Sequence record: OQ174503.1 | DNA from: Escherichia phage REP4 | Length of the DNA stretch: 64,000 nt | Direction: 5' to 3' (one strand) | Part shown: positions 11,928 to 47,670 of the stretch, piece by piece | Numbering within the stretch: position 1 is the stretch's first letter | Layout: each line of letters starts with the position of its first letter | The notes under the pieces: model-generated | What the model was told of the DNA's origin: nothing | The model's database searches: none | The model's input: the letters and a program-made list of their open reading frames with translations, nothing else | Translations under genes and position numbers: made by a program

Positions 11928-12128
11928 ATGGTACAAAAATTAATGGCACTTGTTAATGCCATAAAAGGTAATAAAAAACGTATAGCTTTTACTATTTCTG
12001 CTATGATAGGAATTTTACTTTGGAATTTTGTTTTATCGCCAGTAGCTATTGCTCATGGCGTTAGTATTCCAGTAATTACTCTTGATACATTCGTAGATTT
12101 AGCATTTGCTTTAGTTGGGTTAATTTAA
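11928..12128 (+). CDS. Small hydrophobic two-helix membrane protein (66 aa), opposite strand
   Basis: Intergenic plus-strand ORF with AAGGAGG 4 nt before ATG; stop overlaps primase stop convergently. Confidence 0.5.
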   Translation: MVQKLMALVNAIKGNKKRIAFTISAMIGILLWNFVLSPVAIAHGVSIPVITLDTFVDLAFALVGLI

Positions 12129-13153
12129 ATCTTAGCATATTTAGATAGCCGCATTTTAGCCATCAGCCCTTGAGCAATATTATTTTTCATATATTCCATA
12201 ATTTGTTCAGGGGTTGCACCTTCCTTTCTAATCATATCATTAACATCTTTTGATTTCCAGGGAGATTTATCCCAAAACATAACCCTTTCTCCTGCATCAA
12301 CCAATTTAGTCATTCGTTTAATAGTGTCAGGATGACGAGGTTCATTATCTAAAACCCATACACGTCTATCTTTAAATGGAACAATTTCTAGGTCTAATTG
12401 ACCACCTGTAATAGCTATACCATTTTCAATAAAAAGTGAATCTATAGGTCCTTCTAGAACATATACATCACCATCTTTAACCCGTTCAACACCATAGATT
12501 TTTGTTGCCTCAGGATAAGCTTTGATGGTGATATATTTTTGAGGAGCATCTTTCTTTAATGCGCGTCCTTGAAAAGACTCAGCTTTTCCATTAGCATTAT
12601 AAATTGGAATAACAAGACGAGGCTCAGATATTTCCTTTTTATATGTTCCTGGTGCTATACTATTAACTAATTTAGGCCATTCAGTTGTAAACCAAAGATA
12701 TTTCCATTTATCCTTTGGAATACAGCGAGCTTTTACGTATTTTATAATTGGATGGTCTTCCGCCAGTTTATCTAATCTAATGCATGACGGAAGAGATTTA
12801 ATTATTTTCTTCTCAGGTTGTTTAGGAAGTTCTTTAGGTTTTTCTACTGGACGACTTTTACCTTTTTCTTTTCTTATTTCAAAGATATACTCACGATATA
12901 AATCAGGTTCAAACTCCTTTAAATATATTCCGATTGGTGCATGATAGTTACAGTTATAGCAATGAATATTTCCTTCATTATTATCACCATAATACCATCC
13001 ACGGGCTTTATTTTGGTCGGTTTTTGAATCTCCACAAACAGGGCATCTAAACCGTAATTTAAAAGTTGAACTATTATTTACTTGTGTGAATTTAGGTAAA
13101 TGAGCTAATGCACGGTATGCAAACTCATTATCAATCCAAGGTATTGATGGCAT
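12125..13153 (-). CDS. 61: DNA primase gp61 (342 aa)
   Basis: N-terminal zinc ribbon CPVCGDSKTD...HCYNCNYH; 342 aa; adjacent to helicase 41 region. Confidence 0.9.
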   Translation of the reverse strand: MPSIPWIDNEFAYRALAHLPKFTQVNNSSTFKLRFRCPVCGDSKTDQNKARGWYYGDNNEGNIHCYNCNYHAPIGIYLKEFEPDLYREYIFEIRKEKGKSRPVEKPKELPKQPEKKIIKSLPSCIRLDKLAEDHPIIKYVKARCIPKDKWKYLWFTTEWPKLVNSIAPGTYKKEISEPRLVIPIYNANGKAESFQGRALKKDAPQKYITIKAYPEATKIYGVERVKDGDVYVLEGPIDSLFIENGIAITGGQLDLEIVPFKDRRVWVLDNEPRHPDTIKRMTKLVDAGERVMFWDKSPWKSKDVNDMIRKEGATPEQIMEYMKNNIAQGLMAKMRLSKYAKI

Positions 13154-36445: not shown

Positions 36446-36916
36446 TTAATCATGTTTCCACACCCCATCGGTATTTGACCAAAGTCGCTGATTATCTGAA
36501 CCTCGCCACAGCTTTTTGGTCGGAAGATTTTTCTCATACTTCCCATCAATAATAACATCAACATATTTAAGCATTTCTAGTTGTTTAATATCTTCAAACT
36601 TATATCCTGTCCACAACCAAATGCTTTTATTTGGATAAAGATTTTTTACCGTTTGAACAATGCAATGAACATCATCTCGGTTATCAGGATAAAGAGGGTC
36701 TCCTCCAGTTATAGTTAATCCTTCTATATAATCATTATTCAAACATTCAATTAATTGTTCAAGTGTTTCACCAGTGAATGGAACGCCATTTCTAGCATTC
36801 CATGTTGATTTATTATAACACCCTTCACATTTATGCAAACACCCCGTAACGAAAAGAACGACCCTGCATCCAGGGCCATTCACAAAATCGCAGGGATAAA
36901 ATCTATCGTAATTCAT
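36446..36916 (-). CDS. nrdG: Anaerobic ribonucleotide reductase activase NrdG (radical SAM), 156 aa
   Basis: CxxxCxxC cluster GCLHKCEGCYN; 4-nt overlap with nrdD. Confidence 0.9.
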   Translation of the reverse strand: MNYDRFYPCDFVNGPGCRVVLFVTGCLHKCEGCYNKSTWNARNGVPFTGETLEQLIECLNNDYIEGLTITGGDPLYPDNRDDVHCIVQTVKNLYPNKSIWLWTGYKFEDIKQLEMLKYVDVIIDGKYEKNLPTKKLWRGSDNQRLWSNTDGVWKHD

Positions 36917-38730
36917 TGGTGTTTAACCCTATGCATGATTTCTTTATTTTTGCCAAGATTAAATCCGCGTTCGTTCGGATTTCCCAAATAACCACAAGTT
37001 CTTCTTATTGTGTTCATCTTTTTAGGATCAGTTTCTCCACAAATAGAACAAACAAATCCGTTTTCAGTAGGAGTCATTTCATGGGTACTTCCACACGTAA
37101 AACATTTATCTACTGGCATGTTAACACCAAAATAATCTAAATGTTGTGCAGCATAATCCCATACAGCCTCAAGACCTTTTAGGTTATTTTTCATATCAGG
37201 AAGTTCAACATAAGAAATGTGACCGCCTGTCGCAATGAAATGATATGGGGCTTCGCGAGAAATCTTTTCAAACGGAGTAATATTTTCTTCTACTGAAACG
37301 TGGAAACTGTTGGTGTACCAGCCTTTATCAGTAACATCCTTTACACTTCCATATTTTTCGGTATCAAGTTTACAGAAGCGATAGCACAGGTTTTCAGCAG
37401 GAGTAGAATACAAACTAAAAGCAAAACCAGTTCTTTCAGTCCACTGCTTAAGACGAGCATTCATTTTAGTTAAAATTTCTTGTCCAATATCACGACCGAC
37501 AAGAATATTCAATTCGTGAATACCAATGTATCCTAGGGACACTGAACTTCTACCGTTTTTAAATAACTCAATTATGTCGTCGTCAGGTTTAAGACGAACC
37601 CCGAATGCACCTTCTTGGTAAAGAATAGGAGCAACAGTCGCTTTAACTCCTTTTAAGGAACTAATTCTACACATCAAAGCTTCAAAACATAAATCCATTC
37701 GTTCATTGAACAATTCGGCAAATTTCTGTTCATTGAACTGTGTTCCAGTATAAGAATCTAACGCAATACGAGGAAGATTCAGTGTTACAACACCAAGATT
37801 ATTACGTCCATCAAGAATTTCATTACCAGTCGAATCTTTCCATACACTCAAGAAACTACGACAACCCATTGGAGAAACAGGAATAGATGAACCGGTGATA
37901 GCTTTATTGTTCTTAGCCGAAATGATGTCAGGATACATTCTTTTGCTTGCACACTCTAAAGCAAGCTGCTTAATATCATAGTTCGGATCGTCTTTATAAA
38001 GATTAACACCCTCTTCAACGAACATAACAAGCTTAGGGAAAATAGGAGTTATCCCATCACGACCAAGGCCTTTAATACGATTTTTCAGAATTGCTTTCTG
38101 AATCATTCGTTCAGTCCAGTCAGTTCCCGTACCAAATGTAATTGTTACAAAAGGCGTTTGTCCGTTTGAACTAAAGAGAGTATTTACTTCATATTCATAA
38201 GCTTGGAACGCATCGTATACGTCTTTTTCTGTTTTAGACTGGGCGTAATTCAACGCATCAGCGATTTGCCATTTTTCTGCATCCTCAATATGTTTTGCGT
38301 AGGTGCGTTTAACATAAGGAGAAAGGACTTTATCTACATTCGCAAAAGTCGTTCCGCCATATTGATGGGAAGCAACCTGCGCAGTAATTTGTGCCATAAT
38401 TGCAGTAGCAACGCCAATTGATTTAGGAGTTTCAATCTGTGCATTACCGAGCTTAAATCCGTTCTCAAGCATTCCTTTTAAATCTACTAAACAACAATTA
38501 GTAAATGGAAGAGCAGGAGAATAATCAATATCATGGAAATGGATAATTCCGCTTTCATGCGCTTTCATAATAAAAGACGGGACCATATTTTTGGCAATGT
38601 GTTTAGACACAATACCAGCCATAAGGTCCCGTTGAGTTGGAAAAACACGAGAATCTTTATTAGCATTCTCGTTTAAAAGGTCTTTATTAGTTTTATGAAT
38701 TAATCCTTCAATTTCTTTTTCAATTGTCAT
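36913..38730 (-). CDS. nrdD: Anaerobic ribonucleotide reductase NrdD (glycyl radical), 605 aa, uninterrupted
   Basis: C-terminal glycyl radical motif RRTCGYLG and zinc ribbon CFTCG...CSICG; continuous ORF. Confidence 0.95.
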   Translation of the reverse strand: MTIEKEIEGLIHKTNKDLLNENANKDSRVFPTQRDLMAGIVSKHIAKNMVPSFIMKAHESGIIHFHDIDYSPALPFTNCCLVDLKGMLENGFKLGNAQIETPKSIGVATAIMAQITAQVASHQYGGTTFANVDKVLSPYVKRTYAKHIEDAEKWQIADALNYAQSKTEKDVYDAFQAYEYEVNTLFSSNGQTPFVTITFGTGTDWTERMIQKAILKNRIKGLGRDGITPIFPKLVMFVEEGVNLYKDDPNYDIKQLALECASKRMYPDIISAKNNKAITGSSIPVSPMGCRSFLSVWKDSTGNEILDGRNNLGVVTLNLPRIALDSYTGTQFNEQKFAELFNERMDLCFEALMCRISSLKGVKATVAPILYQEGAFGVRLKPDDDIIELFKNGRSSVSLGYIGIHELNILVGRDIGQEILTKMNARLKQWTERTGFAFSLYSTPAENLCYRFCKLDTEKYGSVKDVTDKGWYTNSFHVSVEENITPFEKISREAPYHFIATGGHISYVELPDMKNNLKGLEAVWDYAAQHLDYFGVNMPVDKCFTCGSTHEMTPTENGFVCSICGETDPKKMNTIRRTCGYLGNPNERGFNLGKNKEIMHRVKHQ

Positions 38731-39819: not shown

Positions 39820-40128
39820 TTATAGCGTAATCCATTCTCGTACTGTCTGAGTTACTACACGTTCTCGAGGTTCGACTAGTTCAACAGTCGGAACTGCATA
39901 ATACCAGTCAGAATGGTAAGAACCTGAGCGAGATTCATTTACAGCCACATGAACATTGTGTTTTGGACTAAAATAAACACATTGCCGATATTGGCATTTG
40001 CCATCTTGTACCCAGTCTTCTATTTCGATAGGTTTAAGATAATCCGAAAAATCGAAATCATAGTTTTCTGAAAATGCATCATGGTCTTCGATTATTTCGC
40101 TCAGAACTGCATCAACATCGTAAATCAT
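39820..40128 (-). CDS. Hypothetical protein (102 aa)
   Basis: ORF track. Confidence 0.5.
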   Translation of the reverse strand: MIYDVDAVLSEIIEDHDAFSENYDFDFSDYLKPIEIEDWVQDGKCQYRQCVYFSPKHNVHVAVNESRSGSYHSDWYYAVPTVELVEPRERVVTQTVREWITL

Positions 40129-40130
40129 AT

Positions 40131-40346
40131 TTACCCCAGTTTAACCATGCAATCGCCATATTTCCATTTAGAAATAGACTTTTCACCATTAGAATAATAA
40201 ACTTCGAGTTTAGCGCGGCCATTTTTAATTTGAATAACTTTTGCTGTCATCAAAGTTCCATACCCATAATAAACTGCAACCTCATCACCCACATATACCG
40301 CGCTTCCACGGTAGTCATGGATATAATCAGTTCCTTCAAGCATCAT
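40131..40346 (-). CDS. Hypothetical protein (71 aa)
   Basis: ORF track. Confidence 0.5.
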   Translation of the reverse strand: MMLEGTDYIHDYRGSAVYVGDEVAVYYGYGTLMTAKVIQIKNGRAKLEVYYSNGEKSISKWKYGDCMVKLG

Positions 40347-40606
40347 TTAAAGTATTCACGCAATTGGTCAAATCCACCAATATGACTTCCGTCAGGAGCA
40401 AATACCTGAGGCATCGTCAATCCGATTTGAGTATCACGACCCAGTTTAGTCAGAAGCTCAGCGATTTTCTCATCATCAAAAACACCTTTTTCCGGCATAA
40501 TGTTGATAAATTCAAACGGCTGTTTCTTCACAGTCAAGAGACGTTTTGCATTATCGCAATACACACATTTGTGGATGTTGCTATCATAACCATATACTTT
40601 AAACAT
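40343..40606 (-). CDS. nrdC: Thioredoxin/glutaredoxin NrdC (87 aa)
   Basis: CVYC active site; 87 aa as T4 thioredoxin. Confidence 0.85.
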   Translation of the reverse strand: MFKVYGYDSNIHKCVYCDNAKRLLTVKKQPFEFINIMPEKGVFDDEKIAELLTKLGRDTQIGLTMPQVFAPDGSHIGGFDQLREYFK

Positions 40607-40865: not shown

Positions 40866-41154
40866 ATCGATGTTTACAATGACGACATTTATAACGAAGA
40901 TTACTAGTCTGCCAATGAACTAATTGTACCTGTTCAGTACCACATTTTGGGCAGTTCGGAACATTCTTAGAAGCCCTTTCGCGGCGTTCAACCATAGCCA
41001 TAATAGCATCCCAGGCTGGAGGTTTAAAATCTAAATCGTCACAACCATGAATCTTTCCACGCATTTCTAAATCGTCTTCTTCACCATCCATAATAATTTT
41101 AATTAGACTGGAATTACTTGAAGCTGCAATATCTTCTAATAAGCGCTTTTTCAT
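40837..41154 (-). CDS. Zinc-ribbon protein (105 aa)
   Basis: CPKCG...CRHCKH. Confidence 0.5.
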
Positions 41155-42083
41155 TTCAATACCTCAATAGCATTTCGTAAACCGTCAGCTTTTGCATTCA
41201 GAGCTTTTAATGATTTAGTTTGTTCTGCAATCCGGGCTTCGACTTCTTTCAGACGAGATTTGAGATATTCGCGTTCTTCTCTTAAGTTATCAACTTTTTC
41301 TGCTTTAGGCTCTTTAATAGGCTTAGGCTTATACTCATTAGGGTTCTTCAACTTAATTTGAATGTGAGAACTGTATAACATTGAACCATTATCTTCGGTT
41401 TCATCATACGTTTCTACTACGTCCATGATTCTTAACATCATGCGAAGTTTATAAGACAGCGAACGAATGGTTTTGTTGCGCTTATTAATTTCTTCGGCTT
41501 TCATGGTACCGAGATTACGTGAGTAGTAATAAGGAACCTGGATATCAATTGATAATGATGCGTTACCATTACCGGTTGGTTTGAATACTGCAGTAACCCA
41601 ATCTTTAACATGAACTTTATTTGTACGATCATCGCCGCCTGTGAATAATTTACGTGAATGTTTAAAAAGCATATTCACTTGGTTATTGAATTCACAAGCA
41701 AATTTATCAGCAAATTTAGTTTCAGGAATGGTAGATAACCAATCAGCTAAATGGGTCTTTTTAACATCGTTAACAATAGTAAATTCAACCAAATCAGTTA
41801 TAGATGTCGCAGATTTAATGAAGCTTGGCTTCATAAAGTTTTTAATGTTATCGCGAGCTACAGTAGAAGATAACATACGAGAACGTTTAAACCATTCAAG
41901 CAAATTGCCTAACGAATGAGAATAAGCGTTTTGAGTATCTTTACAGATATGATTTTCCTGGCCAACATATTGAAGGAAATCACGAAGAATATTATTGATT
42001 ACTGCTCTGTGCCCGATTTGATAATTACGGTGTTTAGTAATAAGACTGTCAAAATAATCAATATAATGTTTACGAGTTTTCAT
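41151..42083 (-). CDS. Coiled-coil-tailed protein, paralog family member 1 (310 aa)
   Basis: C-terminal heptad-rich segment [45 protein letters not shown]. Confidence 0.6.
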   Translation of the reverse strand: MKTRKHYIDYFDSLITKHRNYQIGHRAVINNILRDFLQYVGQENHICKDTQNAYSHSLGNLLEWFKRSRMLSSTVARDNIKNFMKPSFIKSATSITDLVEFTIVNDVKKTHLADWLSTIPETKFADKFACEFNNQVNMLFKHSRKLFTGGDDRTNKVHVKDWVTAVFKPTGNGNASLSIDIQVPYYYSRNLGTMKAEEINKRNKTIRSLSYKLRMMLRIMDVVETYDETEDNGSMLYSSHIQIKLKNPNEYKPKPIKEPKAEKVDNLREEREYLKSRLKEVEARIAEQTKSLKALNAKADGLRNAIEVLK

Positions 42084-42135
42084 GTTCTTCTCACTTGGTT
42101 AATGATTTATACTCCGAGCCATCCTTGGCTTTAAA

Positions 42136-43137
42136 TTACTTAATTAACTGTAAAGCTTGTTCAAGACGATCCAAGCGATTAACAGATTCTTCCCAAATCC
42201 TTTTAGCCTTCTCATATTCTTTCTGTGCTTTATTAGAAATTTCTAGAACTTCCTTATAAGCTTTTTCTAATGCAATAACTTCTGGACGAATTTCTACCGG
42301 TTTAGGCGAATCATCAAGATTATCCATTAGTTCCTCAAGGGTAGTTTCTTCTTTAGGAGTATTCACAATTTCATCACATTTTTGTTGGTAAATTTCTTTA
42401 TCAGTCGGTGAGTACGTACGTTTCACTTCACGAAGGCTAATTATAATTTTATATCCTTCCCAACCACACATATTTTTGAAAGGATATGTATGAATACTTT
42501 TTACGGTTTCCATACAGCCCAAAGCCGCCTCTAATTGATAAGTTATAGTGCTAGCAATTGAGAAAAATTTATTAATATTCTTTTGGTTAGCGTTTGGTGT
42601 AAAAAATCCATAATTCACAAAAATAGCTACTTTATTTTTATCAAGCTCATATTCTTTTACGATAACCATATCAGAAGCCAAAGGATGAATTTGACGATAA
42701 TCGCCATAACATAATTTAGAAGCTGATTTTAGAATCTGTCCTTTGAAAAGCCTGAAATTACTAATCCAACGACGAGTAAAAATATTCTCAGGGTCTTCTT
42801 TATTATTAAGATGATAAGAATTAACATCACCGAACCAATTATATCCTACTACATCTTTAGTTCGTTTAATTTCTTTCCCAAATTTACCAAGAATATCTCT
42901 GTTGACTAAGTATGAAAGAAGACGAGACCCTTTAAAGGTTTTCTTAATGTCATCTTTATCTGTACGACTAGAAATTTCACGAACTTCGTGAATAAATCTG
43001 CTGGAAGAAACAATGCTTACATCAATATTATTGAGCCATTGATTGATAATAGAAAGAACACTATTCTGACTAGACTTAGGTTTAACTTTATCATCAATAA
43101 CGCTATTGAATGATTTGATATATTCGTTACGAGTCAT
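42136..43137 (-). CDS. Coiled-coil-tailed protein, member 2 (333 aa from ATG at 43137)
   Basis: C-terminal EKAYKEVLEISNKAQKEYEKAKRIWEESVNRLDRLEQALQLIK; GAGGAG Shine-Dalgarno. Confidence 0.6.
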   Translation of the reverse strand: MTRNEYIKSFNSVIDDKVKPKSSQNSVLSIINQWLNNIDVSIVSSSRFIHEVREISSRTDKDDIKKTFKGSRLLSYLVNRDILGKFGKEIKRTKDVVGYNWFGDVNSYHLNNKEDPENIFTRRWISNFRLFKGQILKSASKLCYGDYRQIHPLASDMVIVKEYELDKNKVAIFVNYGFFTPNANQKNINKFFSIASTITYQLEAALGCMETVKSIHTYPFKNMCGWEGYKIIISLREVKRTYSPTDKEIYQQKCDEIVNTPKEETTLEELMDNLDDSPKPVEIRPEVIALEKAYKEVLEISNKAQKEYEKAKRIWEESVNRLDRLEQALQLIK

Positions 43138-43165
43138 ATTAATCTCCTCAGTAGAAAGTAAGAAC

Positions 43166-43195
43166 ATTATACCACATCCTTGTGGCAAAGTAAAC
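43166..43195 (-). promoter_or_regulatory. T4 early-type promoter with extended -10; spacer holds palindrome CCACA-TCCT-TGTGG
   Basis: attatacc at 43166-43173, gtaaac at 43190-43195, 18-nt spacer. Confidence 0.55.
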
Positions 43196-44217
43196 TAGTT
43201 CAGTGCATTTAGTGCATTGTTCAGTTTAGAACGTTGCTTCGTGAGATTTTTGACTTTTTCTTGAGCTTTTTCTAGCATCTTTTCAGCTTCTAACACTTCA
43301 TTAGTTGCTTTAACGAGTTCATCATCTACTGCCTTGATAGACTTCTCAATCGCATCCGCGTGCCATTTTTCAACAGGTTTAAGACTCGGATTTTCAACAG
43401 GAAGAAAATTCGCTTTATTGAATTTCCATGCATCCTTATTACCTGAACTATACATCCAAAATTTAGGATCGTTTGATGAGTAATTGGATAAATTTAAGAT
43501 ATCTTGCACTTCTTGCTTTTTCTCTTGCGTGACTTCGTCCTTTCTCAAAAAATCGTATTTAAATGAAACGATCATATCAAGTTCATACGTTGTTGTGTCT
43601 AATTTAAATCGTTCAAAACGAGGTAAAATCTTAGACTGAACAGCGGCAACAACATCCATATACTTAAATGCTTCTGTCAACTGCGATTTAAGGCATTCGC
43701 AAATTGAAAGAGAATTTTTTGTATTAGGTTTAAAGCTAATTCGTGCAGTTCTATTATTTTCTTTTAATGGTCTTACTTCCATCTGAAGAGTATAACCATC
43801 AAATTTCAGATTCTTTAAGTTAATATCAGAACCTTTTAATCGACTCGCAGTTGATAAAATTTGCTTTAATTGTCTACGGAACAGAGCAATAAATCTCCAT
43901 TCAATACGATAATGATTTGGATTGAAAAATCCAGATGATAAATCGACCTTACTTTGACCAACGCCTTGAACAAATAGAGGATTTTTATAATCAATAGTTT
44001 TACAGAAATCGGTGAGCTGCTCACGGGCCGTCATTTGTGTAATATACCCTGCTTTACTAAAATTACGCACCCATTCACTGCTATTCGTATACTTAAAGTG
44101 ATGAATAACACGATTAACTTTATCAGGGTCTAAATTATTTTCACACAAAAATGTCATAACATCACGAGTATAGCTGGCATTACGAACCATATCTTCAATT
44201 TGAGAACGAGTTTTCAT
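43195..44217 (-). CDS. Coiled-coil-tailed protein, member 3 (340 aa)
   Basis: N-terminus MKTR as member 1; C-terminal VDDELVKATNEVLEAEKMLEKAQEKVKNLTKQRSKLNNALNALN. Confidence 0.6.
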   Translation of the reverse strand: MKTRSQIEDMVRNASYTRDVMTFLCENNLDPDKVNRVIHHFKYTNSSEWVRNFSKAGYITQMTAREQLTDFCKTIDYKNPLFVQGVGQSKVDLSSGFFNPNHYRIEWRFIALFRRQLKQILSTASRLKGSDINLKNLKFDGYTLQMEVRPLKENNRTARISFKPNTKNSLSICECLKSQLTEAFKYMDVVAAVQSKILPRFERFKLDTTTYELDMIVSFKYDFLRKDEVTQEKKQEVQDILNLSNYSSNDPKFWMYSSGNKDAWKFNKANFLPVENPSLKPVEKWHADAIEKSIKAVDDELVKATNEVLEAEKMLEKAQEKVKNLTKQRSKLNNALNALN

Positions 44218-44225
44218 GGTATTCC

Positions 44226-45152
44226 TTAAGATTTAAGTAAATCAACGATTTTAATTAACTTTTCACGCTCAGATTTAGCTTTACTACTCAATCCAGATAG
44301 TCTGAAAATTTCATCGTCATATTGTTGAATAGAAATATTCAGCTCTTCAATTTGCTTATTAAAATAATCAATTTGTTCAGAATGTTTTTCGTTACTACGA
44401 ACTGGTACAGGTTTTGTAGGCAATTTAGTTGAACTGGATTCATCCGGGCGATAAATTAAAATACAACTTGAACCAATAGGGCATTTTGCACCAGATGAAT
44501 ATTCTAATGTTCCAGCTTCTTTTAAAACTTCAAAAGCCAAACAGAGATGATGCCCCATATTAACATAATCTGTAGAGTGAGCTCTGATGTAATAATCATC
44601 TCCGCGAATACTGAATTTAAAGCATTTAAGGTCTTCTGTATTATTGGTCTTAAAAATCATTTGTTTATCTAGACCTTTAGCTAATCGAGCGCCTAATGCT
44701 AATAATCGTCGTTGATTTTCCCACAAATCCGTTATCATTTGATCGAATGATAATTTTGGCATTAGTCGACCATAAAGGTCATATCCTTTATTATAATTAC
44801 GAAGGATTTCGCTCGCATTAATACGAGACAACGCTCCAATTTTATTAAGGGCTTTCATAATGCGATTAGATAAACTCATTCCAGACCCGGTTGTTCGCTG
44901 CAAATGTTTTTCTAATCCAAATCCAATATCAACTTTAAACTTATCTAAAATTTCTGCATGAACATCTTTGTCGATAACATTCAAATCCAAAGTTGGGTTA
45001 AATCTATGAAAAAATTTATCTGGCTCTCCACGGCGAAGTACAGTCCATTCATTCATCGTTTTTTTATTAACTAATGATTTAATTACTGCATTGACATTAT
45101 TAATTACTACTGACATATTTTCCTCACTCAATTTCAATTTTACTAAATACAC
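44226..45152 (-). CDS. Coiled-coil-tailed protein, member 4 (308 aa)
   Basis: C-terminal QIDYFNKQIEELNISIQQYDDEIFRLSGLSSKAKSEREKLIKIVDLLKS. Confidence 0.6.
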   Translation of the reverse strand: MYLVKLKLSEENMSVVINNVNAVIKSLVNKKTMNEWTVLRRGEPDKFFHRFNPTLDLNVIDKDVHAEILDKFKVDIGFGLEKHLQRTTGSGMSLSNRIMKALNKIGALSRINASEILRNYNKGYDLYGRLMPKLSFDQMITDLWENQRRLLALGARLAKGLDKQMIFKTNNTEDLKCFKFSIRGDDYYIRAHSTDYVNMGHHLCLAFEVLKEAGTLEYSSGAKCPIGSSCILIYRPDESSSTKLPTKPVPVRSNEKHSEQIDYFNKQIEELNISIQQYDDEIFRLSGLSSKAKSEREKLIKIVDLLKS

Positions 45153-45589: not shown

Positions 45590-46117
45590 TTATGCGAGTA
45601 CCGTCTTTAACCGTTCTTCAAACTTCCGAAGAGTATTTTGGCGTTCAGCTCTTTGCTTTTTGTAAGTTTCAATACGCTCTGAAATGAGAGAGTATCGTTC
45701 ATTTACTGATTCTTTCATAAAATCAGGAATTTCACGAGAAGCTTTAATCTCATCAAATTTATCAATAACAGCTTGCTCTTCAGCAATTAAGTTATCATAC
45801 ATTAAAATATCTTTCTTGATGAACTCAATATCTTCTTGAGTTACACGAGATAATTTAGATGCTTTATCCTTTTTGTACTGTTCGTTAGTATCACGAGACC
45901 AGTGTAATGTACGATTTTTATTCGTATTTTTGTAAATTTCGACAATACCAATCTCATCAATAATAACGATCCAATTCCAACGGGATTTGTAAATTTGTCC
46001 TCCATCAACAGTGATTTCACCTCCGATTGAGATGTCGTTAAAGAACTTACTCTGTGCTTCAGATTTAAATTTACCATCGTTGTAATTTACCAGGTTGAAA
46101 ATATCTTTAGCGTTCAT
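45590..46117 (-). CDS. Hypothetical protein (175 aa from ATG at 46117)
   Basis: ORF track trimmed; GGAGG Shine-Dalgarno. Confidence 0.55.
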   Translation of the reverse strand: MNAKDIFNLVNYNDGKFKSEAQSKFFNDISIGGEITVDGGQIYKSRWNWIVIIDEIGIVEIYKNTNKNRTLHWSRDTNEQYKKDKASKLSRVTQEDIEFIKKDILMYDNLIAEEQAVIDKFDEIKASREIPDFMKESVNERYSLISERIETYKKQRAERQNTLRKFEERLKTVLA

Positions 46118-47650: not shown

Positions 47651-47652
47651 AG

Positions 47653-47670
47653 GGAGCCCGAAGGCTCCCT
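47653..47670 (-). terminator. UUCG hairpin terminator after nucleotidyltransferase gene
   Basis: Minus GGGAGCC-UUCG-GGCUCCC followed by U8. Confidence 0.75.

What the first reader, a model, noticed from the sequence alone, without database searches (positions are those of the whole stretch)
41151..45152. Four tandem paralogs with variable N-domains and a conserved C-terminal coiled coil
Four consecutive 308-340-aa genes each end in a ~40-residue heptad-rich helix preceded by a Pro/Lys linker, while their ~250-aa N-terminal domains differ. Two begin with MKTR. This is the layout of diversified receptor, effector or decoy families, and occupies about 4 kb of the most variable part of the window.
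Basis: seen in the sequence. Interest (0 to 1): 0.55.

Follow-up and report, generated by a model that had tools for sequence, protein, structure and literature searches.

The report
T4 nrdC.3–nrdC.6 counter-defence paralog array
Four neighbouring early genes of a T4-like phage (nrdC.3, .4, .5, .6) are diverged copies of one gene (globular head, floppy linker, ~50-residue coiled-coil tail); because nrdC.5 is already known to disarm the bacterial Dsr1 immune protein, the other three are candidates for further anti-immunity genes.

Summary
Window 41151-45116 (minus strand) holds the T4 genes nrdC.3, nrdC.4, nrdC.5 and nrdC.6 (310, 333, 340 and 296 aa). Each has a ~225-250-aa alpha+beta N-domain, a Pro/Lys/Glu-rich linker and a 48-59-residue C-terminal amphipathic helix. 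All four helices keep the same heptad register counted from the C-terminus. They end in a shared motif, L-x-x-A-[LIV]-x-x-L-[KN], which is significant against heptad-preserving shuffles (z=6.75).

The N-domains are not unrelated; they are very diverged homologues:
- nrdC.3 and nrdC.4 align at hhalign E=4e-11.
- nrdC.4 and nrdC.5 align at E=3e-5.
- nrdC.6 joins through bridging proteins and the same predicted secondary-structure order.

Distant T4-like genera carry one copy at the same spot next to nrdC.2, others carry three, and Tequatrovirus carries four. Copies are lost by unequal crossover between paralogs.

No solved structure or known fold matches. The family is tiny: 22 clusters among 1.84 billion representatives.

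Published work (Srikant et al. 2022) shows that T4 nrdC.5 overcomes the Dsr1 sirtuin defence. The best reading is therefore a tandemly expanded early counter-defence family with diversified heads on a common oligomerising tail. This role is shown for nrdC.5 and inferred for the other three. Interest is moderate: these are known ORFs, but the unification appears new and is testable.

The parts
41151..42083 (-). nrdC.3 orthologue, 310 aa (MKTRKHY...AIEVLK). This is the most divergent member: 62% aa identity to T4 nrdC.3 but 87% to the Mosigvirus allele.
   Evidence: (phrog_1435, E=7.7e-110)
41154..41300 (-). C-terminal 49-residue heptad helix of nrdC.3 (aa 262-310), ending LRNAIEVLK
42084..42135 (-). 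52-nt spacer upstream of nrdC.3. It holds a hairpin (GCCAAGGATGGC) followed by TATAAA, resembling the hairpin and -10 element upstream of nrdC.4.
   Evidence: sequence read directly; not tested for function
42136..43137 (-). nrdC.4 orthologue, 333 aa (MTRNEY...ALQLIK). It is the closest paralog of nrdC.3.
   Evidence: phrog_1435, E=1.3e-164; hhalign with nrdC.3: 97% probability, E=3.7e-11; PF26897
42139..42285 (-). C-terminal 49-residue heptad helix of nrdC.4 (aa 285-333), ending LEQALQLIK
43166..43194 (-). Sigma-70 / T4-early-type promoter-like site (TTTACT, 17 nt, TG-TATAAT) upstream of nrdC.4
   Evidence: This is a consensus match only, and the total number of such sites in the region is not above chance.
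43195..44217 (-). nrdC.5 orthologue, 340 aa (DUF7235), 96.5% identical to T4 NrdC.5, the published anti-Dsr1 factor
   Evidence: (PF23882, 426.8 bits)
43198..43374 (-). C-terminal helix of nrdC.5 (aa 282-340; AF2 helix 282-339), starting KPVEKWH and ending LNNALNALN
44226..45116 (-). nrdC.6 orthologue, 296 aa from the ATG at 45116. It is the most distant paralog, with the same secondary-structure order and the same C-terminal module.
   Evidence: phrog_2257; PF26899
44229..44390 (-). C-terminal helix of nrdC.6 (aa 243-296; AF2 helices 243-272 and 278-295, kinked at SGLSS), ending LIKIVDLLKS

Best explanation
The four genes are T4 nrdC.3, nrdC.4, nrdC.5 and nrdC.6. They form one small superfamily confined to T4-like phages.

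Origin. The family arose by tandem duplication, with some lateral allele exchange, from a single ancestral gene that sits just upstream of nrdC.2.

Architecture. Every member has three parts:
- a ~225-250-aa alpha+beta N-domain with no known structural relative;
- a flexible Pro/Lys/Glu-rich linker;
- a ~50-residue C-terminal amphipathic helix with a conserved start (P-[VI]-E-x-[HY]-[HFY]) and a conserved end (L-x-x-A-[LIV]-x-x-L-[KN]-COOH).

Proposed function. The genes are early, non-essential host-range genes, and I propose they act as counter-defence proteins. In this model each diverged N-domain binds and neutralises a different host immune protein. The common C-terminal helix makes the protein an oligomer (homo- or hetero-), giving avidity against oligomeric immune sensors.

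What is shown and what is inferred:
- Shown by others: nrdC.5 restores T4 growth on cells carrying the Dsr1 SIR2/NADase defence.
- Shown here: paralogy, architecture, the conserved tail motif, copy-number dynamics, and the absence of known relatives.
- Inferred: nrdC.5 acts by direct binding of Dsr1, for example by blocking its capsid-protein sensor by analogy with DSAD1 and DSR2.
- Inferred: the helix oligomerises.
- Inferred: nrdC.3, nrdC.4 and nrdC.6 are also anti-defence factors with other targets.
For: Identity of the genes: T4 annotation and PHROG/Pfam matches.

Paralogy:
- nrdC.3 and nrdC.4 align by BLASTP at E=4.5e-5 over 227 aa and by hhalign at 97% probability, E=3.7e-11.
- nrdC.4 and nrdC.5 align by hhalign at 73% probability, E=3.2e-5, colinear over 232 columns.
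- Motifs are shared along the whole length.
- nrdC.6 is linked through P0255. That protein is hit by the nrdC.3/4/5 HMM at E=1.3e-4 against 1.84 billion proteins and by the nrdC.6 profile at 94% probability, E=1.3e-7.
- nrdC.6 is also linked through the Enterobacter phage IME523 335-aa protein. That protein scores with both HMMs (35 and 23 bits), is BFVD structural hit 5 of the nrdC.6 model (E=7e-7), and matches both P0255 and P0250 by tblastn.
- The AF2 models of nrdC.5 and nrdC.6 have the same element order.

Tail module: same register, with a significant terminal motif. In cross-genus orthologues the tail is more conserved than the head in three of the four families.

Expansion and contraction:
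- One copy at the syntenic site in Kanagawavirus and Marfavirus.
- Three copies in Dhakavirus, Gaprivervirus and Mosigvirus.
- Four copies in Tequatrovirus.
- In LYE-01, nrdC.4 was deleted by a crossover inside the ACTCGTAA shared by the paralog starts.
- A larger deletion is present in ACG-C40.

Function:
- nrdC.5 overcomes Dsr1 (PMC9391042).
- The Dsr1 sensor recognises phage major capsid protein (bioRxiv 10.64898/2026.01.04.697583).
- nrdC.3 is locally hypervariable, and its allele is shared across genera.
Against: - Only nrdC.5 has any experimental phenotype, and even there the mechanism is unknown; direct binding has not been shown.
- Conserved N-domain motifs across the paralogs ([ST]R-x-LS...A...L..FG and FR....IL..AS[KR]L..GD) could mean a shared biochemical activity or a conserved target rather than diversified binding surfaces. 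So could the near-invariant blocks in nrdC.6 orthologues (YNKGYDLYGR and NQRRLLALGARLAKG-DKQM-FKTN).
- nrdC.5 and nrdC.6 are not hypervariable within Tequatrovirus.
- Oligomerisation of the helix was not testable here. The e/g charge patterns do not discriminate homo- from hetero-pairing.
Confidence: 0.6

Rival explanations
1. The family acts on a conserved host or phage process early in infection, such as the nucleoid, transcription, replication or nucleotide-metabolism organisation. Suppression of Dsr1 by nrdC.5 would then be an indirect consequence, for example changed timing or exposure of the capsid-protein trigger, or NAD+ economy. The paralogs would be sub-functionalised regulators rather than immune antagonists.
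For: - N-domain motifs are conserved across all paralogs, and nrdC.6 orthologues carry near-invariant blocks.
- The members sit at a conserved syntenic position among nucleotide-metabolism and early genes.
- There is a weak, sub-threshold resemblance of nrdC.3 residues 30-86 to the N-terminal SAM-like DNA-binding domain of tyrosine recombinases (Pfam E=0.15; NCBIfam E=0.003-0.04).
Against: - The genes are dispensable in the laboratory and are lost in natural isolates.
- The nrdC.5 phenotype depends on the host defence system.
- The recombinase and RNAP-alpha similarities are below all curated thresholds and cover only generic sub-folds.
- Copy number and allele turnover are typical of accessory arms-race genes.
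Confidence: 0.22
2. The proteins are decoys: mimics of virion components made early to occupy immune sensors that recognise structural proteins. They would not be enzymes or inhibitors of the effector domain. This is a special case of the main explanation.
For: - The Dsr1 sensor recognises a phage structural protein, the major capsid protein.
- DSAD1 blocks the structural-protein sensor of DSR2 (abstracts listed).
Against: - There is no match to the HK97 capsid fold, which is what Dsr1 is reported to sense.
Confidence: 0.1
3. The four are unrelated genes that each happen to carry a generic coiled-coil tail, with similarity due to composition only.
For: - BLASTP finds no significant similarity between the C-terminal segments, nor between nrdC.6 and the others.
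- The direct profile comparison of nrdC.3/4/5 against nrdC.6 is weak (16% probability, E=0.0015).
Against: - Profile and transitive links are significant.
- The AF2 models have identical secondary-structure order.
- The tails share the same register, and the terminal motif beats heptad-preserving shuffles.
- The start motif M(K)TR is shared down to the DNA level and is used for crossover.
- A single ancestral copy sits at the same locus in distant genera.
Confidence: 0.03
4. They are thioredoxin or ribonucleotide-reductase accessory proteins, as many GenBank records label them.
For: Many phage records name these ORFs 'thioredoxin', and the locus name is nrdC.x.
Against: - No thioredoxin or glutaredoxin Pfam or NCBIfam match appears even at E<=1.
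- The predicted fold is not a thioredoxin fold.
- The label appears to have spread from the neighbouring nrdC gene.
Confidence: 0.01

Closest known systems
T4 NrdC.5 (Pfam DUF7235 / PF23882), the anti-Dsr1 factor of Srikant et al. 2022 (eLife 11:e79549)
   Same: The window gene 43195-44217 is its orthologue: 96.5% identity and a full-length DUF7235 match. The other three window genes are its paralogs with the same architecture.
   Different: The paper treats nrdC.5 as a single uncharacterised early gene. Pfam and PHROGs keep the family split: PF26897 (nrdC.4 family), PF23882 (nrdC.5) and PF26899 (nrdC.6), and phrog_1435, phrog_2351 and phrog_2257. No mechanism, structure or paralog relationship is described in the papers I could search.
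DSAD1 (phage SPbeta anti-DSR2 protein)
   Same: It is a phage protein that neutralises a SIR2-domain NADase defence protein whose C-terminal sensor recognises a virion protein. It is the closest mechanistic analogue for nrdC.5 acting against Dsr1.
T4 accessory counter-defence genes and islands (dmd, tifA and adfA anti-TA island; internal proteins IPI-IPIII)
   Same: These are non-essential genes that decide host range by defeating specific host defences, are variable between T4-like phages, and are readily lost by deletion.
   Different: Those genes are unrelated in sequence and are small. Here a single fold has been multiplied in tandem and carries a common coiled-coil tail.
Tandem paralog arrays of viral immune antagonists ('gene accordions', e.g. 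poxvirus K3L amplification; conceptual analogue, from my own knowledge)
   Same: Copy-number gain and loss happens by unequal recombination between tandem homologues under host immune pressure. The LYE-01 junction shows such a crossover.
   Different: Here the copies are ancient and diverged to 15-25% identity, so they are not recent identical repeats.

Membership tests
T4 NrdC.5 / DUF7235 (PF23882) | Full-length match to the Pfam model above the gathering score | tested here: met
   Window 43195-44217 scores 426.8 bits against a cut-off of 30, covering residues 1-340. It is 96.5% identical to T4 NrdC.5.
T4 NrdC.5 / DUF7235 (PF23882) | Ability to restore phage growth on Dsr1-carrying E. coli | not testable with these tools
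   This was shown for the T4 protein only (PMC9391042). The window copy differs at 12 of 340 residues.
NrdC.3/NrdC.4 family (phrog_1435; PF26897 for the nrdC.4 branch) | Full-length match to the family profile | tested here: met
   nrdC.3 scores E=7.7e-110 and nrdC.4 scores E=1.3e-164 against phrog_1435. Homologues of nrdC.4 carry PF26897.
NrdC.6 family (phrog_2257; PF26899) | Full-length match to the family profile | tested here: met
   E=5.6e-152 against phrog_2257. All 105 homologues carry PF26899.
Proposed NrdC.3-6 superfamily | Homologous N-domain (sequence profiles and fold) | tested here: met
   - hhalign links nrdC.3 to nrdC.4 and nrdC.4 to nrdC.5.
- nrdC.6 is joined through the bridges P0255 and IME523_335.
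- The AF2 element order is identical.
- The direct nrdC.3/4/5 against nrdC.6 profile comparison alone is weak (E=0.0015).
Proposed NrdC.3-6 superfamily | C-terminal ~50-residue heptad helix in fixed register, ending L-x-x-A-[LIV]-x-x-L-[KN] | tested here: met
   (z=6.75).
Coiled-coil oligomerisation domain | Heptad a/d hydrophobic periodicity over at least 4 heptads | tested here: met
   Seven heptads are present, with a and d positions mostly L, I, V or A.
Coiled-coil oligomerisation domain | Actual self- or hetero-association | not testable with these tools
   Only single-chain prediction was available. The e/g charge analysis was uninformative.
DSAD1-like anti-DSR inhibitors | Sequence or structural homology to DSAD1 | tested here: not met
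Thioredoxin/glutaredoxin (the GenBank label on many orthologues) | Thioredoxin-fold domain match | tested here: not met
   No such Pfam or NCBIfam hit at E<=1 or E<=0.1. The AF2 folds are different.
Tyrosine recombinase N-terminal SAM-like domain | Pfam PF02899 or NCBIfam XerC/D match above cut-off | tested here: not met
   Only nrdC.3 residues 30-86 match, at 12.8 bits against a cut-off of 22.3, and 13-17 bits against cut-offs of 279-335.
Known anti-phage defence proteins (PADLOC) | Match to a PADLOC model | tested here: not met
   Only coiled-coil-level hits at E>0.003.

The most novel reading that the evidence does not exclude
The conserved C-terminal helix, with its fixed register and conserved start and end motifs in all paralogs, may be a specific assembly module rather than a generic dimeriser. 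Through it, the three or four paralogs made together early in infection would co-assemble into a hetero-oligomeric, multi-headed complex, or would dock on one common host hub. A single particle would then present several different anti-immune 'warheads'. Gain, loss or swapping of one gene unit by unequal crossover would re-arm the complex.
Probability: 0.12. Interest if true: 0.75.

Novelty: new member of a known kind. Interest (0 to 1): 0.45.

Why it matters
T4 is the reference lytic phage, yet most of its ~130 non-essential early genes have no function. nrdC.5 is one of the few with a phenotype (anti-Dsr1), and it has been treated as an orphan. If it is one of four tandem paralogs sharing a fold and a conserved coiled-coil tail, three things follow:
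- There are three concrete new candidates for counter-defence genes: nrdC.3, nrdC.4 and nrdC.6. nrdC.3 is especially attractive because it is hypervariable and exchanged between genera.
- There is a domain map for mechanistic work on Dsr1 inhibition (head against tail).
- There is a natural example of expansion and contraction of an immune-antagonist family by unequal crossover in a phage.

It also corrects a widespread 'thioredoxin' mis-annotation and suggests merging three Pfam families into one clan.

Tried and rejected
- Pfam, NCBIfam and PADLOC scans gave only DUF7235 for nrdC.5 plus sub-threshold coiled-coil or recombinase-N hits. These gave no functional lead.
- The afdb50 library was unavailable.
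- PDB sequence-profile searches found nothing.
- nrdC.8 (45590-46117) also ends in an amphipathic helix, but it shows no profile similarity and has a different register and ending. I rejected it as a member.
- P0252 (173 aa) has a foreign N-terminus on an exact nrdC.5 tail and looked like domain swapping. Its N-part has no counterpart in phage genomes, and the partial matches turned out to be ordinary or frameshifted nrdC.5 genes. It is probably a frameshift or assembly artefact and was not used as evidence.
- The 256/257-aa and 140/144-aa neighbours in IME523 and Marfa are not family members.
- The e/g charge complementarity test for homo- against hetero-pairing of the helices was inconclusive.
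- The promoter and terminator consensus scan found numbers not above chance for promoters. Only the site upstream of nrdC.4 is noted.
- Literature searches for follow-up on nrdC.3-6 or Dsr1 inhibitors found nothing beyond Srikant et al. 2022. The T4 genome review (PMC150520) is not held.

Full report
**What is there.** The window is a T4-like (Tequatrovirus) genome. The 4-kb query matches 656 phage records, the best at 95.7% nucleotide identity. The finding sits in a run of minus-strand genes, listed here in the order they are transcribed:
- nrdC.11, nrdC.10, nrdC.9, nrdC.8, nrdC.7;
- four ORFs of ~300-340 aa (the finding);
- nrdC.2, nrdC.1, nrdC;
- gene 49;
- nrdD.

This is the ORF list, matched to the T4 annotation. 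The four ORFs are the orthologues of these T4 genes:

| Gene | Window coordinates | Length |
|---|---|---|
| nrdC.3 | 41151-42083 | 310 aa |
| nrdC.4 | 42136-43137 | 333 aa |
| nrdC.5 | 43195-44217 | 340 aa |
| nrdC.6 | 44226-45116 | 296 aa |

The ATG at 45116 has a GAGGA Shine-Dalgarno 6 nt upstream, does not overlap nrdC.7, and is the start of T4 nrdC.6 and of all orthologues. Protein identities to T4 are 62, 88, 96.5 and 97%.

Family assignments in existing libraries are split:
- PHROGs puts nrdC.3 and nrdC.4 together in phrog_1435, nrdC.5 in phrog_2351 and nrdC.6 in phrog_2257.
- Pfam has DUF7235 (PF23882) for nrdC.5.
- In the large protein database the homologues carry three separate Pfam families: PF26897 (nrdC.4 family), PF23882 (nrdC.5) and PF26899 (nrdC.6).

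**Check of the observation: the tails.** A simple a/d periodicity scan places the strongest heptad signal at the C-terminus of each protein. AlphaFold2 predicts:
- nrdC.5: a globular part (residues 1-227), a low-confidence linker (228-280) and one long helix (282-339).
- nrdC.6: a linker (228-242) and helices 243-272 and 278-295.

When written in blocks of seven counted back from the C-terminus, all four tails have their hydrophobic residues in the same two positions for seven heptads. nrdC.6 needs one extra terminal residue removed.

The last 14 residues were aligned end to end without gaps. They are more alike between families than shuffles that keep each residue in its heptad position:
- The summed score is 104 against 23 +/- 12 (z=6.75); none of 1000 shuffles reached it.
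- Each of the six family pairs has p<=0.042.
- The alignment also scores above alignments shifted by whole heptads.

The shared ending is [KR]-x-x-L-x-x-A-[LIV]-x-x-L-[KN]. Most members also share P-[VI]-E-x-[HY]-[HFY] at the start of the helix. No other ORF tail in the 64-kb window resembles this ending. So the 'conserved C-terminal coiled coil' is real. The conservation lies in register and in the two ends, not along the whole helix, which is why BLAST sees nothing.

**Check of the observation: the heads.** The N-domains are not different domains.
- nrdC.3 and nrdC.4 align over 227 residues by BLASTP (E=4.5e-5) and by profiles (hhalign 97% probability, E=3.7e-11, 228 columns).
- nrdC.4 and nrdC.5 profiles align colinearly over 232 columns (73% probability, E=3.2e-5).
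- A joint alignment shows common landmarks along the whole length: M(K)TRxEY at the start, [ST]R-x-LS...A...L..FGK, FR....IL..AS[KR]L..GD, F-x-P, V-E, and the tail motif.

nrdC.6 is too far for direct comparison to be convincing. The profile-profile result is E=0.0015 at 16% probability, although it is colinear and pairs exactly those landmarks. Three independent links join it to the others:
1. An exhaustive HMM search of 1.84 billion representatives with the nrdC.3/4/5 profile found only 22 clusters. One of them, P0255 (E=1.3e-4), matches the nrdC.6 profile at 94% probability, E=1.3e-7.
2. The 335-aa protein of Enterobacter phage IME523 scores with both HMMs (35 and 23 bits). It matches both P0255 and the nrdC.3/4/5-type protein P0250 by tblastn. 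It is also a structural hit of the nrdC.6 model in BFVD (E=7e-7).
3. The two AF2 models have the same order of elements: five helices, a small hairpin, two helices, beta-beta-alpha-beta-beta, a linker and a long helix.

I conclude that all four are paralogs of one superfamily.

**Distribution and dynamics.** The superfamily is tiny and confined to T4-like phages. Copy number by genus:

| Group | Copies | Detail |
|---|---|---|
| Kanagawavirus (IME523), Marfavirus (Marfa) | 1 | Lies directly upstream of the nrdC.2 homologue |
| Dhakavirus, Gaprivervirus | 3 | nrdC.6-, nrdC.5- and nrdC.4-like |
| Mosigvirus | 3 | nrdC.6-, nrdC.5- and nrdC.3-like |
| Tequatrovirus | 4 | All four |

In the phage collection the four window proteins find 653, 553, 587 and 741 records respectively, so presence varies between genomes.

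Within Tequatrovirus:
- LYE-01 lacks exactly nrdC.4. The junction joins the nrdC.4 promoter, Shine-Dalgarno and ATG to the body of nrdC.3, with the crossover inside the ACTCGTAA (Thr-Arg-Lys/Asn codons) that both genes share. This is an unequal crossover between paralogs.
- ACG-C40 keeps only nrdC.6 plus remnants.
- Ec_YwIITB1 has a broken nrdC.5.

The window's nrdC.3 is 62% identical to T4's but 87% identical to that of a Mosigvirus. Locally it is the least conserved stretch: 70-74% nt identity to T4, against ~95% for the flanks, ~91% for nrdC.4 and ~97% for nrdC.5 and nrdC.6.

Between genera the tail is better conserved than the head in three families, and the two are equal in nrdC.3:
- nrdC.4: 63-65% against 38-49%.
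- nrdC.6: 61% against 40%.
- nrdC.5: 27-36% against 19-21%.
- nrdC.3: 65% against 63%.

**What it does.** There is no informative family or fold match:
- Pfam, NCBIfam and PADLOC give nothing above threshold.
- PDB sequence profiles give nothing.

The one functional datum is published. In Srikant et al. 2022, an evolved T4 clone with deletions could no longer plate on E. coli ECOR17. Deleting dsr1 in the host restored plating, cloned dsr1 protected MG1655 against that clone, and expression of T4 nrdC.5 restored infection (PMC9391042). A 2026 preprint reports that the Dsr1 sensor domain, shared with Avs7, recognises phage major capsid proteins. I found no later work on nrdC.5 or on the other three genes.

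**Most likely mechanism.**
- Shown: an early, dispensable, tandemly expanded family with a diverged globular head, a flexible linker and a conserved amphipathic tail. One member defeats a SIR2 NADase immune protein.
- Inferred: the head binds the immune protein. For Dsr1 this would most simply work by occupying or locking its sensor before capsid protein accumulates, as DSAD1 does for DSR2.
- Inferred: the tail makes the inhibitor an oligomer, matching oligomeric targets. Its conserved ends could alternatively reflect hetero-assembly of the paralogs or a common docking partner.
- Inferred: the other paralogs aim at other defences. This would explain why nrdC.3 and nrdC.4 turn over fastest and why natural isolates carry different subsets.

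Confidence is high for the paralogy and architecture (~0.9). It is moderate for the family-wide counter-defence role (~0.5) and low for any specific binding mode.

The main rival is that the family has a conserved housekeeping-like early role and that the Dsr1 effect is indirect. Strongly conserved N-domain motifs, especially in nrdC.6, favour this. Dispensability, host-specific phenotype and copy-number turnover argue against it.

**Comparison with what is known, and novelty.** The genes themselves are known T4 ORFs, and nrdC.5 has a known phenotype. In the literature and libraries I could search, three things appear not to be recorded:
- the four genes are one superfamily (Pfam and PHROGs split them into three);
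- they share a specific C-terminal module;
- the array grew from one ancestral gene and changes by unequal crossover.

That makes nrdC.3, nrdC.4 and nrdC.6 new candidate members of a known kind, phage counter-defence proteins, rather than a new kind of system. Interest is moderate. A T4 or phage-defence specialist would find it useful and directly testable, but not startling.

Noticed in passing
L001 (T4 NC_000866) 12067-12894, compared with window 44226-44340: The reference T4 sequence has a 1-nt deletion in nrdC.6 (GAGCTG-ATATT against GAGCTGAATATT). It frameshifts away the last ~37 residues of the coiled coil, giving 275 aa instead of 296. The intact tail is still readable in another frame, so this is either a laboratory-strain mutation or a sequencing error.
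   Followed up: yes
L006 (Escherichia phage LYE-01) 4930-5035, compared with window 42046-43200: A natural deletion of exactly one gene unit (nrdC.4). The junction lies in the 8-nt ACTCGTAA shared by the 5' ends of nrdC.4 and nrdC.3, so nrdC.3 is now driven by the nrdC.4 promoter and RBS and starts MTR instead of MKTR.
   Followed up: yes
window 41151-42083: The window's nrdC.3 allele is 62% identical to T4's but 87% identical to the nrdC.3 of a Mosigvirus (NRG-P0074). There are two allele classes in the phage collection (80-90% and 60-63% identity), which suggests allele exchange between genera.
   Followed up: partly
many GenBank records under hits H1-H165: nrdC.3-nrdC.6 orthologues are widely annotated as 'thioredoxin', or occasionally 'Mur ligase domain-containing protein', 'endonuclease II' or 'coil protein'. 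No thioredoxin-family match exists. The label seems to have spread from the neighbouring nrdC gene.
   Followed up: yes
window 43166-43194 (-) and 42084-42135 (-): There is a strong T4-early-type promoter-like site (GTTTACT, 17 nt, TG-TATAAT) with an embedded hairpin (CCACAAGGATGTGG) upstream of nrdC.4. A similar hairpin (GCCAAGGATGGC) followed by TATAAA lies upstream of nrdC.3. The duplication unit may therefore have included the promoter. nrdC.5 and nrdC.6 have only 7-8-nt gaps to the preceding genes.
   Followed up: partly
window 45590-46117 (-), nrdC.8: This 175-aa protein also ends in an amphipathic helix (…RQNTLRKFEERLKTVLA). It has a different register and ending and no profile similarity to the four paralogs. 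It is well conserved: 98% identity to T4 and ~70% to Dhakavirus.
   Followed up: partly
window 47651-47670: A perfect GC-rich hairpin (AGGGAGCC-CGAA-GGCTCCCT) is followed by a T-run on the minus strand, between nrdC.11 and nrdC.10. This is a likely intrinsic terminator, and a promoter-like site lies just downstream at 47612-47584.
   Followed up: no
window 36913-38730 (-), nrdD: nrdD is one uninterrupted 605-aa ORF here, whereas T4 nrdD is split by the I-TevII intron. No mobC-type homing endonuclease ORF was noticed among the ORFs listed near nrdD (the list began at 38000). The 40001-40500 stretch (the gene 49.x region) is only about half alignable to T4.
   Followed up: no
P0252 (173 aa, from the representative search): This database protein has an unrelated 120-aa N-terminus joined to an exact copy of the nrdC.5 tail. 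The N-part has no counterpart in the phage collection, so it is probably a frameshift or assembly artefact rather than true domain swapping.
   Followed up: partly
L002 (phage vB_EcoM_ACG-C40) 6730-7141: This Tequatrovirus has lost nrdC.3-nrdC.5 except for a 72-aa nrdC.5 N-terminal ORF and the last 47 codons of nrdC.3. Only nrdC.6 remains intact.
   Followed up: partly
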